Assembly (NCBI RefSeq): GCF_018350175.1
Contig: NC_058368.1
Span: 43,898,001-43,962,000, forward strand
Direction of reading: 5' to 3'
Length of the DNA stretch: 64,000 bases
From: Felis catus
Lineage: Eukaryota
In this document: positions 4,339 through 59,122 of the stretch, one piece after another
How the letters are laid out: each line of letters starts with the position of its first letter
Numbering within the stretch: position 1 is the stretch's first letter
Translations under genes and position numbers: made by a program
The notes under the pieces: generated by a model
The model's database searches: none
The model's input: only the letters and a program-made list of their open reading frames with translations
What the model was told of the DNA's origin: nothing

Positions 4339-4515
4339 TACTCCTGCCAAAAAAAGTAAAAATATCTCCCTAAAGTTCTTGTGTGGTATTCACATAATTT
4401 TTTATTTATTTGAGTGTAGTTGACATACTCCTGCCAAAAAAAGTAAAAATATCTCCCTAAAGTTCTTGTGTGGTACTCACATAATTTTTTATTTATTTGA
4501 GTGTAGTTGACATAC
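4339..4515. repeat. 87-bp tandem duplication (2 copies)
   Basis: Units 4339-4425 and 4426-4512 differ at one position (ggtattcac vs ggtactcac); tac microhomology at the ends. Confidence 0.95.
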
Positions 4516-16344: not shown

Positions 16345-16562
16345 GGGGCACCTGGGTGGCTCAGTTGGTTAAGCGTCTGATTTCGGCTCAGGTCATGATC
16401 TCACAGTTCGTGGGTTTGAGCCCCACATCGGGTTCTGTGCTCACAGCTCAGAGCCTAGAGCCTGCTTCGGATTCTGTGTCTCCCTCTCTTTCTGTTCCTC
16501 CCCCACTCATGCTCTGTCTCTCTGTCTCCTTCCACAATATATAACATTTAAAAATTTTTTTT
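16345..16562 (+). mobile_element. CanSINE
   Basis: TSD aaatgtgatgtgtctt (16329-16344) / aaatatgatgtgtctt (16563-16578). Confidence 0.96.
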
Positions 16563-17162: not shown

Positions 17163-17984
17163 GCTGTAACTTGAGTATTAAAGTCACCTGCAATTACCGA
17201 TTGCTTATGTTTATTAATTGATTTATATATTTGGGTGTTTCCAAATTGGGTGCAGGAACATTTATAATTGTTAGCTCTTCTTGATGGATAGACCCATAGT
17301 TATGATAAAAAGCCCTTCATCATCTCTTGTTACAGTATTTAGTTTAAATCTAGTTTGTCTAAATATGGCTCCAGCTTTGTTTTGACTTCCAGTAGCATGA
17401 CAGATTGTTCTCCATCCCCTCACTTTCAATCTGAAGGTGTCCTCAGGTCTAAAATGAGTCTCTTGTAGATAGCAAATAGATGGGTCTTGTTTTTTTATCC
17501 ATTCTGATACCCTTTGTCTTTTGATTGGAGCCTTTAGTCCATTTACATTCGGCATTATTTTTGAAAGATGTGGATTTAGTGTCATTGTGTTATCTGTAGG
17601 TTTCATGCTTATGGTGATGTCTCTGGTCCTTTGTAGTCTTTACAATATTCCAGTCACAGAGTCCCTCTTAGGATCTCTTGTAGAGCTGATTTAGTGGTAA
17701 TGAACTCCTTCAGTTTTTGTTTGTCTGGGAAAACCTTTATCTCTCCTCTATTCTAAATGACATCCTTGCTGGATAAAGGATTCTTGGCTGCATATTTTTC
17801 CTATCTAGCACATTGAATATTTTCTGCCAGTCCTTTTTGGCCTGCCAAGTTTCAGTGGATACGTCTGCTACTACCCTTGTGTGTCTACCTTTGTAGGTTA
17901 AGGTCCATTTGTCCCTAACTGCTCTGTTTATCTTTGTATTTTGACAATTTCACTATCACATGTCATGGAGAAGATTGATTCCTG
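17163..17984 (-). mobile_element. Inverted 5' segment of a felid L1 (ORF1 C-terminus plus ORF2 endonuclease N-terminus)
   Basis: Minus ORF 17271-17606 reads NVNGLKAPIKRQRVSEWIKKQDPSICYLQETHF (APE endonuclease); ORF1 C-terminal motifs lie upstream on the minus strand. Confidence 0.93.
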
Positions 17985-19920: not shown

Positions 19921-20134
19921 GGGGCGCCTGGGTGGCTCAGTCGGTTAAGCGTCCTACTTCAGCTCAGGTCATGATCTCACGGTCTGTGAGTTCAAGCCCC
20001 GCGTCGGGCTCTGTGCTGACAGCTCCGAGCCTGGAGCCTGCTTCAGATTCTGTGACTCCCTCTCTCTGACCCTCCCCCATTCATGCTCTGTCTCTCTCTG
20101 TCTCAAAAATAAATAAACATTAAAAAAAAATTAA
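19921..20134 (+). mobile_element. CanSINE, first of a tandem pair
   Basis: Full head and tail; TSD aagaattgcttct (19907-19919 / 20360-20372) flanks both SINEs together. Confidence 0.97.
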
Positions 20135-20359
20135 GGGGCGCCTGGGTGGCGCAGTCGGTTAAGCGTCCGACTTCAGCCAGGTCACGATCTCGCGGTCCGT
20201 GAGTTCGAGCCCCGCGTCAGGCTCTGGGCTGATGGCTCAGAGCCTGGAGCCTGTTTCCTATTCTGTGTCTCCCTCTCTCTCTGCCCCTCCCCCGTTCATG
20301 CTCTGTCTCTCTCTGTCCCAAAAATAAATAAAAAACGTTGAAAAAAAAATTAAAAAAAA
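20135..20359 (+). mobile_element. Young felid CanSINE (SINEC_Fc type) in the tail of the previous SINE
   Basis: Near-consensus ggggcgcctgggtggcgcagtcggttaagcgtccgacttcagccagg. Confidence 0.97.
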
Positions 20360-41259: not shown

Positions 41260-41832
41260 TCACTATATAAATAAAGCTTTCACTAAATCAACAGATGGCA
41301 TGGCTATCAGAGCATTTTGGCAAAATATACATTTAAATCCAATCAAAGTATCTCTTTCAGTGAGAATGAAAGCCATCTACTGCTTCCCTGGGTAATGGTA
41401 TCATTTTGGACTCTCAATTGATCTCTGCTTTTGGATATTGGGGTCAGTTTAGCCTTGGAGAGAAAAAAAAGTCATCTAGTTGAACCTAGGCAAATACCTC
41501 GATACTTCCCACCATAGTTACTTTACTCATGAGCTTATTGAGCATAAGTAGGATAGCTGAGAAAAAGGCTGATTGACTTTCATAAAATAAGTCCTCTTTC
41601 CCACCTGAGTATTAAGGACCTCATCAGTATTGAGTAAGCATTCAAATGGAACACATATATTTTTATGTACTGAACCCTTTCTGACAGATCCAGTCACATA
41701 TATTTTTCAAGTCTTATAGTTGTACAATCCTCTGATCTTGTTCCCTCCTCATTTAGCCAAGTTATTACCACTTCAGATCAAGCAGGATATATACACATAT
41801 TTGACCATTTCCCCTTTAAGCAAAATGCACAC

Positions 41833-41890
<58 letters not shown>

Positions 41891-42090
41891 TATATATATC
41901 TCAAGTCTTATACTGTGGGAGGATTTTATTCCTGTCCTCCCACAGTATAAGACTTGAGATATATATATGTATGTCTTTTACATATACTTTACACTGAGGG
42001 CATTTGAAACTAGTATAGCAGTTCACCTGTAGATGATGCTAACATTTCAACAGATTCCAAATATTTTCCTCAACACCTGAAAATAGGCAT
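41260..42090 (-). mobile_element. Degenerate ERVL internal (pol RNase H/integrase region)
   Basis: gaccattttcccctttaagcaaaatgcac...tgggaggatt...gcagttcacctgtagatgatgc resembles antisense ERVL pol; no open frame. Confidence 0.55.
41884..41974. repeat. Inverted repeat/hairpin, 40-bp stem and 11-nt loop
   Basis: 41900-41923 ctcaagtcttatactgtgggagga is the exact reverse complement of 41935-41958; pairing extends to 41884/41974 with one G-T. Confidence 0.97.
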
Positions 42091-42594
42091 GTGTTTCCAG
42101 ATTTCAGATAAATGTGTGAATGTATTCTATCCCAGGTATATGCTTATATATTTCTCTTTTCTTTTCCTGAGTTATCCAATTTATAGAAATTTTTACTATA
42201 TTACAGATGCAGAGATATATTAATAACTGTTGTAACTTTACAGGTAATCAGTCTTTTGCATCGTAAATTATTCTTTGTCCCATGTAATAATTTTTAGTCC
42301 AAAATCTACCTTATCTGATATTAAAATTATATTCCAAACTTTCAATTTGCATTTTCCTTTATATATTTCCATATGTGTATTTCAGTCTTTATGAAAAACT
42401 CCATTTTATGTGGTTCCTTTCTAGAAACCATCAAAATACATTTTGCTTTATTATTGATGTATTTCTTAAATAGATATATTTATTTTCATTCATTTTTATC
42501 TGTATGAGCTTAGTTGTAAATATTTTTTTTGTTTTTCTTTCAGATTTATAGTTTTATTCAATTGATTTTTTTGTGTTAACGACATAACATGTTC

Positions 42595-42900
42595 TATTGG
42601 GGTTTATCACGGGAATGCAAGTTTATTTAACATTTGAACATATTATCAGACTAAAAAAGAAACACAAAATAAAGAAAAACGTATGATATTTTTAATATAT
42701 GCCATAATAGTTTTTGGTACAATTTAACATTCATTCATGATAATAACTTATACCAAACCTGGCACATGAAGAGCATCTCTGAAAAAAATCTAGAGATAAC
42801 TTCATATTTAATGGTGAAAACTAAATGCTTCCATCCTAAACTGTTAACTAGGCTAAGACGTCCTCTCTAATCATTTCAATATTGTAATGTAGCACAGGGT
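42595..42900 (+). mobile_element. L1 ORF2 (RT) fragment
   Basis: ggggtttatcacgggaatgcaag...cattcattcatgata...ttaatggtgaaaactaaatgcttcc. Confidence 0.75.
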
Positions 42901-42929: not shown

Positions 42930-44952
42930 AAAGTTATAGTTTCCAGCTCAGCATATAAAGAACTTGGAAGTTGCCAGTTTATTCTAACAACAGGAAAAAG
43001 TCCAAACTGAAAAAATCAACAATTCTTCTAGTATCCATAAGAAAGATGAGGTCACAGGGTAAACTGAAGATTGGAGACACAGTCCAATATAGGGAGTCAT
43101 GCCTTACTTGAGCAGAGAGTCTTGAATGATACACCCTAGAATCACCCATAGGAAAACCTGAACTGTAATTGAGGAAATGTTGGAGCCTCAGTGTGAACAG
43201 CTCTGAGCTTTCAAAATTCCAGGAGGTCCCAGTCATAGGAATTTATAAACAATTTTGTGAAATTTACTTCCAGGAGTTCCAGTAGATGCTCACGGTAAAT
43301 ATCAGAGAAAAATTTCCTCTTGCTTTCACCAAGGAGAGGGTTAAAAGAACCATTTTTGAATATGCTGGAGTATTCAATTCTTCTTAACAAGGCTTGCCCT
43401 TGAGAGAAACTAGATGACTAGATCCTAACCTGCTGCCGTATTATCAGAGCATAACTTACCTGGAGGAAGGGAAATGCCCGACTCCAACCTACTCTAGCCA
43501 TTCTCTCCCATCTAAAGGGAGAGAAAAAACCCTGAAAAACACTTGTGAAGTTAATAGTCCAGAAACATAGGCTCACCCAAAGACTGAGAGCTAGTTACAA
43601 GACTGCAGATTGCTTCCCCTCCCTGCACACCTTACAACCGCATTACTGAGGGTCTGTTTGCAGTGATTCCTTTTGCCCAGCACATCACATCTGGCTGTCA
43701 AGAAAAAACTTTTAAGGTATACAATATATAAATAAATAATAAATAAATAAATTCAAAGAGAGCACACATCAGAACCAACATGTAAGGGATGTTGAAATAT
43801 CACAATTAGAAATGAAAACAGCTATGATTAATATTATCTCACGGATAAAATATACAGCATGCAAGAACAGATAAGCAATGTAAGCAGAAAGATAAAATTC
43901 CTAAGAAAGAGAAAATGTTAGAGATTAAAAACACAGAAATAGATATGGTGAATTTCTTTGATAAGTTTATTAGTAGACTGAATGGTTGAGCAGAGTCTCT
44001 GAACTTAATATCGCAATAGAAATTTCTAAAACTGAAGAGCAGGGAACAAATATTCAAAACAAAAACTGAATAAAATATCCAATAACAGTGGGACAAATAC
44101 GAGAGGTATAATATACATGTAATGGGGATATCAAAAGAAGAAATAAATGGAAGCAATATTTGAAATAATAATGACTGAGAATTTTCCCTAATATGTCCAA
44201 TACCAAGCCACAGATCTAGGAAGTTCAGAGAATACCAAAGAGAATAACTACGAAAAACTAAAGATAGGTACATCATTTTCAAACTACAGACGACTGAAGG
44301 TAAGGAAAGAATCCTAAAAGAAGTCAGAAAAAACAAACAAATTTCTCTTATAAAGGAACAAAGACAAGAAATACCTCTGACTTCTCAGAAACCATACAAA
44401 CAAAAAGAGAGTGAAATAAAATATTTAAAGTGTTGAGACAATAAACAACCTAGAATTCTGTATCCTGTGAAACCATCCTTCAAAAATGAAGGGGGAGTGA
44501 AAACTTTCTCAGGCAAACAAAAATTAAGGGAACTTATTGATAATAAACCTGCCATATAGAAATATTTTAAAAAGATACACTTAGGAAAACAATATAGTCA
44601 GAAACTCAAATCTACAAAAGGAAAAGAGAATAGAAGAAAGAATACATTATGGTAAAATAAAAACTCTAATTGATCATACTCTTAATTGATCTACAGATAA
44701 CAGTTGAAGATAATAATAGGAACAATATATTTAATTATATATACTTAAGTAATATATTTGCTTAATGTATGTATATATTATATGTAGTGTACGTAGAATA
44801 TATATATATATATATACACACACATATATATATATAGGCACCATGTATATGCACACATACATACATAAGCATTATATATAGTGTGTGTAGAATATATCTT
44901 ATACATATTATATATATACATATATACACATATATATGTATACACATGTGTG

Positions 44953-44990
<38 letters not shown>

Positions 44991-59016: not shown

Positions 59017-59057
59017 ATATATATGCATACATATATATACACATATATATACTGTAT

Positions 59058-59118
<61 letters not shown>
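59017..59118. repeat. (TA)n/(CA)n compound microsatellite
   Basis: Directly visible. Confidence 0.96.

Positions 59119-59122
<4 letters not shown>

What the first reader, a model, noticed from the sequence alone, without database searches (positions are those of the whole stretch)
41884..41974. De novo near-perfect hairpin (pre-miRNA-like) made by fold-back inside a decayed ERVL
Seen: a 24-bp non-repetitive perfect stem (ctcaagtcttatactgtgggagga / tcctcccacagtataagacttgag) with an 11-nt loop, extending to 40 bp with one G-T, beside a long (TA)n tract. The arms are identical although the surrounding ERVL is heavily decayed, so the inversion is recent or maintained. The left arm and loop resemble the underlying ERVL pol sequence (recalled similarity). 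The right arm looks like a new reverse-complement copy primed at agga/tcct that also copied part of the TA tract. Known: replication template switching creates such hairpins in one step and is a described route to new miRNA genes; stem and loop sizes fit Drosha/Dicer substrates. Inference: a candidate lineage-specific miRNA or hairpin RNA, or a cruciform-prone site. Nothing here shows expression.
Basis: partly seen in the sequence, partly recalled or inferred. Interest (0 to 1): 0.7.

Follow-up and report, generated by a model that had tools for sequence, protein, structure and literature searches.

The report
Copy-back hairpin in cat junk DNA
A 91-base stretch of non-coding DNA in a cat-family genome folds into a nearly perfect hairpin, most likely because a short piece was once copied backwards in one replication or repair slip; this is a common, known kind of mutation scar, and nothing found shows that it makes a microRNA.

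Summary
The hairpin is real. Arms 41884-41923 and 41935-41974 pair over 40 bp (34 perfect, 24 non-repetitive) around an 11-nt loop, far beyond chance. Two DNA runs from separate studies hold the arm-loop-arm contig without differences, and the collapsed stem lies at about twice the loop depth (2.04, 1.89): both chromosomes carry it, and there is no dispersed identical family. That rejects an artefact and argues against a MITE. Best reading: one short-range template switch or Pol-theta snap-back beside a (TA)31 tract added the right arm (about 39 nt). No outgroup sequence was obtained, so which arm is new is inferred, and four tools failed to confirm the ERVL identity. Arm identity only bounds the age below about 20-28 My; it needs no selection. 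For a miRNA there is only the shape: neither arm is in 5 of 5 informative cat miRNA catalogues, no UG, UGU or CNNC motif, one flank is paired by the TA tract, and one poly(A) run has no reads on it. In primates 0.9% of such hairpins are annotated miRNAs. Verdict: ordinary template-switch hairpin, low interest.

The parts
41884..41923 (.). Left arm: 16 nt that are the end of the TA tract plus 24 non-repetitive nt; likely the template (inferred)
41924..41934 (.). 11-nt loop (9 nt in + strand RNA if a closing U-G forms); no UGU/GUG on either strand
41935..41974 (.). Right arm: reverse-complement copy of the left arm with one difference (41969); likely the added piece, about 39 nt (inferred)
41890..41968 (.). 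Perfect 34-bp stem with loop; the stem collapses to one 34-nt contig at twice the depth of the 71-nt arm-loop-arm contig
   Evidence: table 8 (X1 19.6 vs 9.6; X12 17.8 vs 9.4)
41838..41899 (.). (AT)31 microsatellite with one CA interruption; folds on itself and pairs off the flank at the foot of the hairpin
41933..41936 (+). First copy of a 4-nt direct repeat that brackets the right arm at a distance of 39; its last 2 nt could prime the fold-back
   Evidence: weak: 27.5% by chance if both junctions may move 2 nt
41972..41975 (+). Second copy of the 4-nt direct repeat; 3 nt of it end the copied arm and could be the re-joining homology
41698..41718 (+). Third, partial, same-strand likeness to the outer left arm (21 nt, 90%; 12-nt exact core); chance or an earlier templated event
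   Evidence: family D4; (23 of 1334 control 24-mers reach 12 nt)
41343..42100 (-). Probable decayed ERVL pol remnant (RNase H to integrase region), full of stops and frame changes; limits approximate
   Evidence: recalled likeness in the translations; not confirmed

Best explanation
A neutral mutation scar. In a felid ancestor, DNA synthesis stalled or a break was repaired just past a long (TA)n tract. The 3' end folded back over an 11-nt loop on about 2 base pairs, copied some 39 nt of the strand just made (24 unique nt plus the end of the TA tract), let go, and re-joined the forward template on about 3 nt of homology. In the four-point model this is a 3-2-1-4 event, which leaves one inverted repeat; Pol-theta snap-back repair leaves the same scar. 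The allele drifted up and is on both chromosomes of the two animals examined. Shown: the hairpin, its presence in DNA runs, two copies of the stem only, the AT-rich setting. Inferred: one event, its direction, the primer and re-joining bases, the role of the TA tract, neutrality.
For: Perfect 34-bp stem, unique in the window and beyond chance. Reverse template 11 nt away; 3-2-1-4 and 1-4-3-2 are the majority patterns and event sites are AT-rich in great apes (PMC7954356, passages). The right arm ends in a short copy of the TA tract's end, with no TA tract beyond it. A 4-nt direct repeat brackets the right arm at offset 39; nothing over 2 nt brackets the left arm. Pol theta starts stem-loop synthesis from two 3' base pairs and gives inverted insertions (PMC11292364, passages). 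Stem/loop depth 2.04 and 1.89. Zero mismatches in 24 bp has P = 0.34 at 10 My under the cat pedigree rate. Such hairpins are common: 31,007 new stems, 6,054 of miRNA size, in genic regions of the human lineage (PMC10710096).
Against: No outgroup: searches gave none, and the one organism-B contig stops at 41972, inside the bases shared by both possible alleles. The bracketing repeat is weak (3.5% at fixed junctions, 1572 of 5710 = 27.5% with 2 nt of freedom). At about 39 nt the copy is long for a template switch (median 12, maximum 128). The third partial copy at 41698-41718 is not explained and may mean more than one step.
Confidence: 0.76

Rival explanations
1. Same family of mechanism, other history: a weak older inverted repeat was perfected by arm-to-arm copying (quasi-palindrome correction), or several switches built it, or the left arm is the copy.
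For: The loop already holds a 4-bp agga/tcct self-pairing next to the stem. A third partial copy lies 194 nt upstream (D4; 1.7% in the empirical null). Events needing several switches are reported (PMC10710096). Direction untested.
Against: Pairing stops sharply after pair 40 with no decayed extension. Only the right arm has a bracketing repeat. By recall only, the left arm and loop continue the ERVL likeness and the right arm does not.
Confidence: 0.16
2. A young felid miRNA gene or hairpin RNA: the stem is transcribed, cut by Drosha and Dicer, and gives a 22-nt product (the same two arms from either strand).
For: Stem 34-40 bp and loop 11 nt are near the preferred 35 bp and 10 nt or more (PMC10710096). 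Template switching made 18 MirGeneDB miRNAs in primates. One contig of an RNA library of organism B covers 41972-42216 and ends 3 nt inside the foot of the stem, though it looks like a single fragment and may be DNA.
Against: Neither arm motif in 5 of 5 informative cat catalogues. No Rfam match. No basal UG, apical UGU/GUG or CNNC on either strand for two cut registers; the TA-side flank is paired (P unpaired 0.11 and 0.03). 0 true reads on hairpin or unique flank in 1,934 million letters of oligo-dT RNA (2% of one run). No host-gene domain in 147 of 177 long frames scanned, whereas 99 of 111 template-switch miRNAs are intragenic; base rate 57 of 6,054.
Confidence: 0.03
3. A tiny MITE (about 60 nt, terminal inverted repeats, TA target) inserted in the TA tract.
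For: The unique arms are flanked by TA on both sides, and the layout is repeat-spacer-repeat.
Against: Stem depth is twice single-copy depth in 2 of 2 DNA runs, so no further identical copy; no other contig at 85% likeness or more was laid on the stem (a filter drops human-like records). No other copy in the window at up to 3 mismatches. TA flanks are trivial in a TA tract, and pairing runs 16 nt into the tract, beyond any target duplication. DNA transposons are thought long silent in cats (recalled).
Confidence: 0.03
4. Assembly or library fold-back artefact.
For: It lies beside a long TA tract; one of the runs laid may be the source of the assembly.
Against: The same 71-nt arm-loop-arm contig at full single-copy depth (9.6, 9.4) and without differences in runs of two studies, 2024 and 2014.
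Confidence: 0.01

Closest known systems
Short-range template-switch mutation, four-point model, type 3-2-1-4 (Walker et al. 2021, PMC7954356, passages; Loytynoja and Goldman 2017, recalled)
   Same: Single inverted repeat, reverse template within 100 nt, net gain of length, AT-rich setting, possible by an intra-strand switch.
   Different: Copy of about 39 nt is above the median of 12; no ancestral sequence here, so type and direction are inferred.
Template-switch hairpins and template-switch-born miRNAs (Monttinen, Frilander, Loytynoja 2023, PMC10710096, parts 1-3 of 6 read)
   Same: Perfect stem of pri-miRNA size that can arise in one step.
   Different: The accepted genes are expressed, mostly intronic and mostly carry later mutations; this one has no sign of expression, host gene or catalogue entry, so it resembles the 99% that are not annotated.
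Pol-theta stem-loop (snap-back) templated insertion, SD-MMEJ (PMC11292364, passages; PMC5728401, search listing only)
   Same: 2-bp fold-back primer, inverted copy of adjacent DNA, short re-joining homology.
   Different: Sequence alone cannot tell break repair from a replication slip, and the junction homology is within chance.
Cruciform-forming AT/TA repeats at fragile sites, e.g. Flex1 (AT)34 (PMC12972899, PMC11797062, search listings with abstract starts)
   Same: A tract of like length that can form hairpins and stall forks.
   Different: This tract has an interruption; no fragility data exist here.
Short palindromic MITEs such as MADE1 (recalled)
   Same: Short inverted repeats, small spacer, TA flanks.
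   Different: No dispersed family in the two runs; arms reach into the microsatellite.

Membership tests
Canonical miRNA gene | Stem near 35 bp with loop of 10 nt or more | tested here: met
   34 perfect / 40 total bp, loop 11 nt
Canonical miRNA gene | Single-stranded flanks at the basal junction | tested here: not met
   Predicted P(unpaired) of the 15 nt on the TA side 0.11 (+) and 0.03 (-); other side 0.95 and 0.40. Prediction only.
Canonical miRNA gene | At least one Microprocessor motif (basal UG, apical UGU/GUG, CNNC, mGHG); helpful, not obligatory | tested here: not met
   No UG, UGU/GUG or CNNC for two cut registers on both strands; the only non-Watson-Crick pair is not in a GHG triplet (read). 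Motif positions from PMC7174388 and PMC10954719, passages.
Canonical miRNA gene | Transcription of the locus | tested here: inconclusive
   0 true reads in X24 (2% of one oligo-dT run); one X20 contig on the flank that may be DNA.
Canonical miRNA gene | Mature and star reads of 20-26 nt with uniform 5' ends and 2-nt overhangs | not testable with these tools
   No small-RNA run was listed. Proxy: neither arm in 5 of 5 informative catalogues; 2 more had no sequences to search.
Template-switch mutation (four-point model) | High-identity reverse template within 100 nt | tested here: met
   39 of 40 nt, 11 nt away
Template-switch mutation (four-point model) | Ancestral or outgroup sequence lacks the copied segment, and one switch explains the difference | not testable with these tools
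   No outgroup across the junction
Pol-theta snap-back templated insertion | Short fold-back primer and short re-joining homology at the two junctions | tested here: inconclusive
   2 nt and 3 nt present, but chance gives 4 shared nt in 3.5-27.5% of controls
MITE | Many dispersed similar copies | tested here: not met
   Stem at twice single-copy depth in 2 of 2 runs, no other contig laid on it at 85%; none in the window. No whole-genome search was possible.
MITE | Target-site duplication outside the inverted repeats | tested here: inconclusive
   TA on both sides, uninformative inside a TA tract
ERVL pol remnant (host sequence) | Significant likeness to ERVL Pol protein or DNA consensus | tested here: inconclusive
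   No retroviral hit in Pfam, PDB (17), 1.84 billion representatives (31) or the word search (49). These are weak tests for a frame-shifted fossil; no repeat library is on hand. The likeness is recalled.

The most novel reading that the evidence does not exclude
The hairpin is a cat-lineage proto-miRNA or endo-siRNA source, made in one step from a dead endogenous retrovirus beside a fragile TA tract and expressed at low level in a tissue or stage (oocyte, embryo, placenta) that the catalogues searched did not sample.
Probability: 0.03. Interest if true: 0.45.

Novelty: new member of a known kind. Interest (0 to 1): 0.14.

Why it matters
As it stands it matters little: one more clean example of a mutation class with tens of thousands of inferred cases in primate genic regions (PMC10710096). 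It is a tidy teaching case, and one data point for the idea that long TA tracts seed fold-back insertions in the germ line, a setting that the published polymorphism scan left out because it excluded repeats. If small RNAs were found, it would extend template-switch birth of miRNAs from primates and mice to carnivores, with a retroviral fossil as raw material; that would be worth a short report and would not change the known mechanism.

Tried and rejected
Whole-genome copy search: no genome is held. ERVL confirmation: six frames against Pfam gave only three sub-threshold unrelated hits; PDB 0 (17); representatives 0 at E 0.001 (31); word search 0 of 93 candidates (49); the protein atlas was not searched. 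Outgroup search: JGI metagenomes 0 of 595 pattern matches confirmed (42); look-alike windows in other genomes of this scan 0 (46); chance reading frames of relatives 0 (62); the organism-B contig ends at 41972 and cannot tell the allele (23). The 41 X24 reads laid are all partial, low-identity matches on A/T-rich stretches at 42500-42695 and were not counted as expression. Two catalogues (PMC7023829, PMC13185173) lacked even the let-7 control and were dropped from the count (5 of 7 informative). Host-gene search: 147 of 177 stop-free frames of 62 aa or more were scanned (30 over microsatellites and SINEs left out): two L1 hits and one sub-threshold hit, no cellular gene (44); short exons and lncRNAs would be missed. 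'Identical arms mean selection' was rejected by the rate calculation (53). The 4-nt junction repeat was first taken as good support and then marked down after the looser null (68). The fold of the locus before the event was not computed.

Full report
Observation. The window holds an inverted repeat with arms 41884-41923 and 41935-41974, 40 nt, 98% complementary, 11 nt apart. From the loop outward 34 bp are perfect, pair 35 is G-T, five more pairs follow, and then pairing ends. The outer 16 nt are the end of an (AT)31 tract at 41838-41899; the inner 24 nt are not repetitive. It is the only perfect stem of 12 bp or more outside dinucleotide repeats in 64 kb; 12 of 12 block-shuffled windows gave at most 10-14 bp, and the expected number of 24-bp stems is 1.3e-7 per window. 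RNA folds have z of -12.6 and -13.5 with 0 of 200 shuffles as stable, the DNA fold z -13.5.

Setting. The window is 28-39% G+C, with tRNA-derived SINEs that I recognise as felid (consensus, tRNA hit; family name recalled) and L1 remains. The best holders are 14 runs of one organism from 10 studies, with 0.96-0.97 of the sampled words; a run labelled feline metagenome holds 0.39, and earlier notes on this genome call it cat (unchecked). I take it to be a felid, probably the domestic cat (inference). No cellular protein domain was found in 147 of 177 long stop-free frames; short exons and lncRNAs would escape this.

Is it real, and is it single-copy? I laid 4 of the 24 runs on 41884-42700. X1 and X12, DNA runs of two studies (2024, 2014), each give a 71-nt contig 41894-41964 (arm, loop, arm) with no differences at depth 9.6 and 9.4, and a 34-nt contig 41890-41923 at depth 19.6 and 17.8. 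The 34-mer is the perfect stem, collapsed because both arms give the same words. The ratio is 2.04 and 1.89; 2 is expected if both chromosomes carry the hairpin and 3 if one lacks the right arm. So the hairpin is genomic in 2 of 2 animals, on both chromosomes, and the stem has no further identical copy. No other contig at 85% likeness was laid on the stem, and the window has no other copy.

How it arose. A near-perfect reverse copy 11 nt from its template is the mark of a short-range template switch. In great apes the commonest patterns (1-4-3-2, 3-2-1-4) leave one inverted repeat, 65% of events add length, the copied piece has median 12 and maximum 128 nt, and sites are AT-rich (PMC7954356, passages). 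Here a 4-nt direct repeat brackets the right arm at offset 39 (41933-41936, 41972-41975), while nothing longer than 2 nt brackets the left arm. Read as a plain addition, the strand folded back on 2 bp, copied about 39 nt including the end of the TA tract, and re-joined on 3 nt. Pol theta starts stem-loop synthesis from two 3' base pairs and such events give inverted insertions (PMC11292364, passages), so break repair and a replication slip cannot be told apart. Long AT/TA tracts form hairpins and cruciforms that hinder forks (PMC12972899, PMC11797062; search listings with abstract starts), which offers a trigger. Against over-reading: 4 shared nt occur at 3.5% of fixed junction pairs and 1572 of 5710 when each junction may move 2 nt; a third partial copy at 41698-41718 (23 of 1334 controls as good) is unexplained; and no outgroup was obtained. 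The only organism-B contig, 41972-42216 with 2 differences, stops inside the bases shared by both possible alleles. Direction and step number are therefore inferred.

Age. With the cat pedigree rate of 0.86e-8 per bp per generation at 3.8 years (PMC9290555, abstract start), 24 bp with no mismatch give a 95% upper age of 27.6 My, 34 bp 19.5 My, 40 bp with one mismatch 26.2 My; at 10 My a clean 24-bp stem has P = 0.34. This assumes a constant rate and no conversion between arms. The arms are much younger than their decayed surroundings, but need be neither species-specific nor selected.

Is it a miRNA? For: stem and loop are near the preferred 35 bp and 10 nt (PMC10710096), and template switching explains 18 MirGeneDB genes in primates. 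Against: in that study only 57 of 6,054 suitable genic hairpins (0.9%) are annotated in miRBase, and 99 of 111 such miRNAs are intragenic (parts 1-3 of 6 read). A central 14-nt motif of each arm, in both spellings, was sought in the supplements of 7 cat small-RNA papers. In 5 the let-7 control was found and neither arm was: PMC5569061 (12 tissues, 271 precursors), PMC9548565 (ovary and testis), PMC6785219 (file with an 823-row cat sheet; the control rows shown were from its human sheet, and only 9 mirrored files were held), PMC12313912 (blood), PMC9299306 (urine). In 2 the control was absent, so they do not count. These are lists of accepted calls, not raw reads, and they apply only if the organism is the domestic cat or very close; supplements not held as text could hide an entry; miRBase and MirGeneDB could not be searched. 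Rfam has no match at the locus. No basal UG, apical UGU/GUG or CNNC is present on either strand for cuts set from the loop or from the base, and the TA tract pairs off one flank (P unpaired 0.11 and 0.03) (motif positions from PMC7174388 and PMC10954719, passages). X24, raw oligo-dT reads, 1,934 million letters or 2% of the run, has no true read on the hairpin or its unique flank; this is a weak test for an intronic or non-polyadenylated transcript. The X20 contig comes from an RNA library and ends 3 nt inside the foot of the stem; its length and depth fit one fragment read twice if reads were 2x150 (2.23 computed vs 2.2; read length assumed). That could be a copying stop at the stem or chance. 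It is not where a cut 11-13 nt inside the stem would fall, and it may be DNA.

What it works like and what it is. It folds like a pre-miRNA and was most likely made like a template-switch or snap-back insertion. It is not filed as a miRNA (flank and motif tests not met, expression unshown), nor as a MITE (dispersed copies not met). Membership of the template-switch class rests on the reverse template; the ancestral-state test could not be run. Earlier notes of this scan describe another inverted templated insertion in the same genome as an ordinary scar and a cluster of such hairpins in an arthropod-type genome; both are unchecked and are not counted as support. I ran no search aimed at this locus in main texts, so I make no claim that it is absent from print beyond the supplements named.

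Verdict. Real, homozygous in two animals, single-locus, most likely a one-step copy-back scar beside a TA microsatellite (0.76), with 0.16 for a more complex history of the same kind, 0.03 miRNA, 0.03 MITE, 0.01 artefact. New member of a known kind; interest 0.14.

Noticed in passing
window 41698-41718 vs 41892-41912: A third, partial same-strand likeness to the outer left arm (21 nt, 90%; 12-nt exact core), 194 nt upstream; 23 of 1334 control 24-mers reach this, so chance or an earlier templated event.
   Followed up: partly
window 41972-42216 (run X20, organism B): One 245-nt contig with 2 differences from an RNA library ends 3 nt inside the foot of the stem; fits one fragment read twice; does not tell allele or expression.
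   Followed up: partly
window 19921-20332: Two carnivore-type SINE copies head to tail (period 213, 89% matches).
   Followed up: no
window 4339-4515: Young 87-nt tandem duplication, 98% identical.
   Followed up: no
window 17274-17949 (-): L1 remains with endonuclease (just under the cut-off) and ORF1 dsRBD-like Pfam hits.
   Followed up: no
window 44798-44974 and 59019-59119: Two more compound TA/CA tracts with internal inverted symmetry, but no unique-sequence stem beside them.
   Followed up: partly
window 16350-16434: Weak Rfam tRNA hit (33.3 bits), most likely a tRNA-derived SINE head.
   Followed up: no
   Followed up: no
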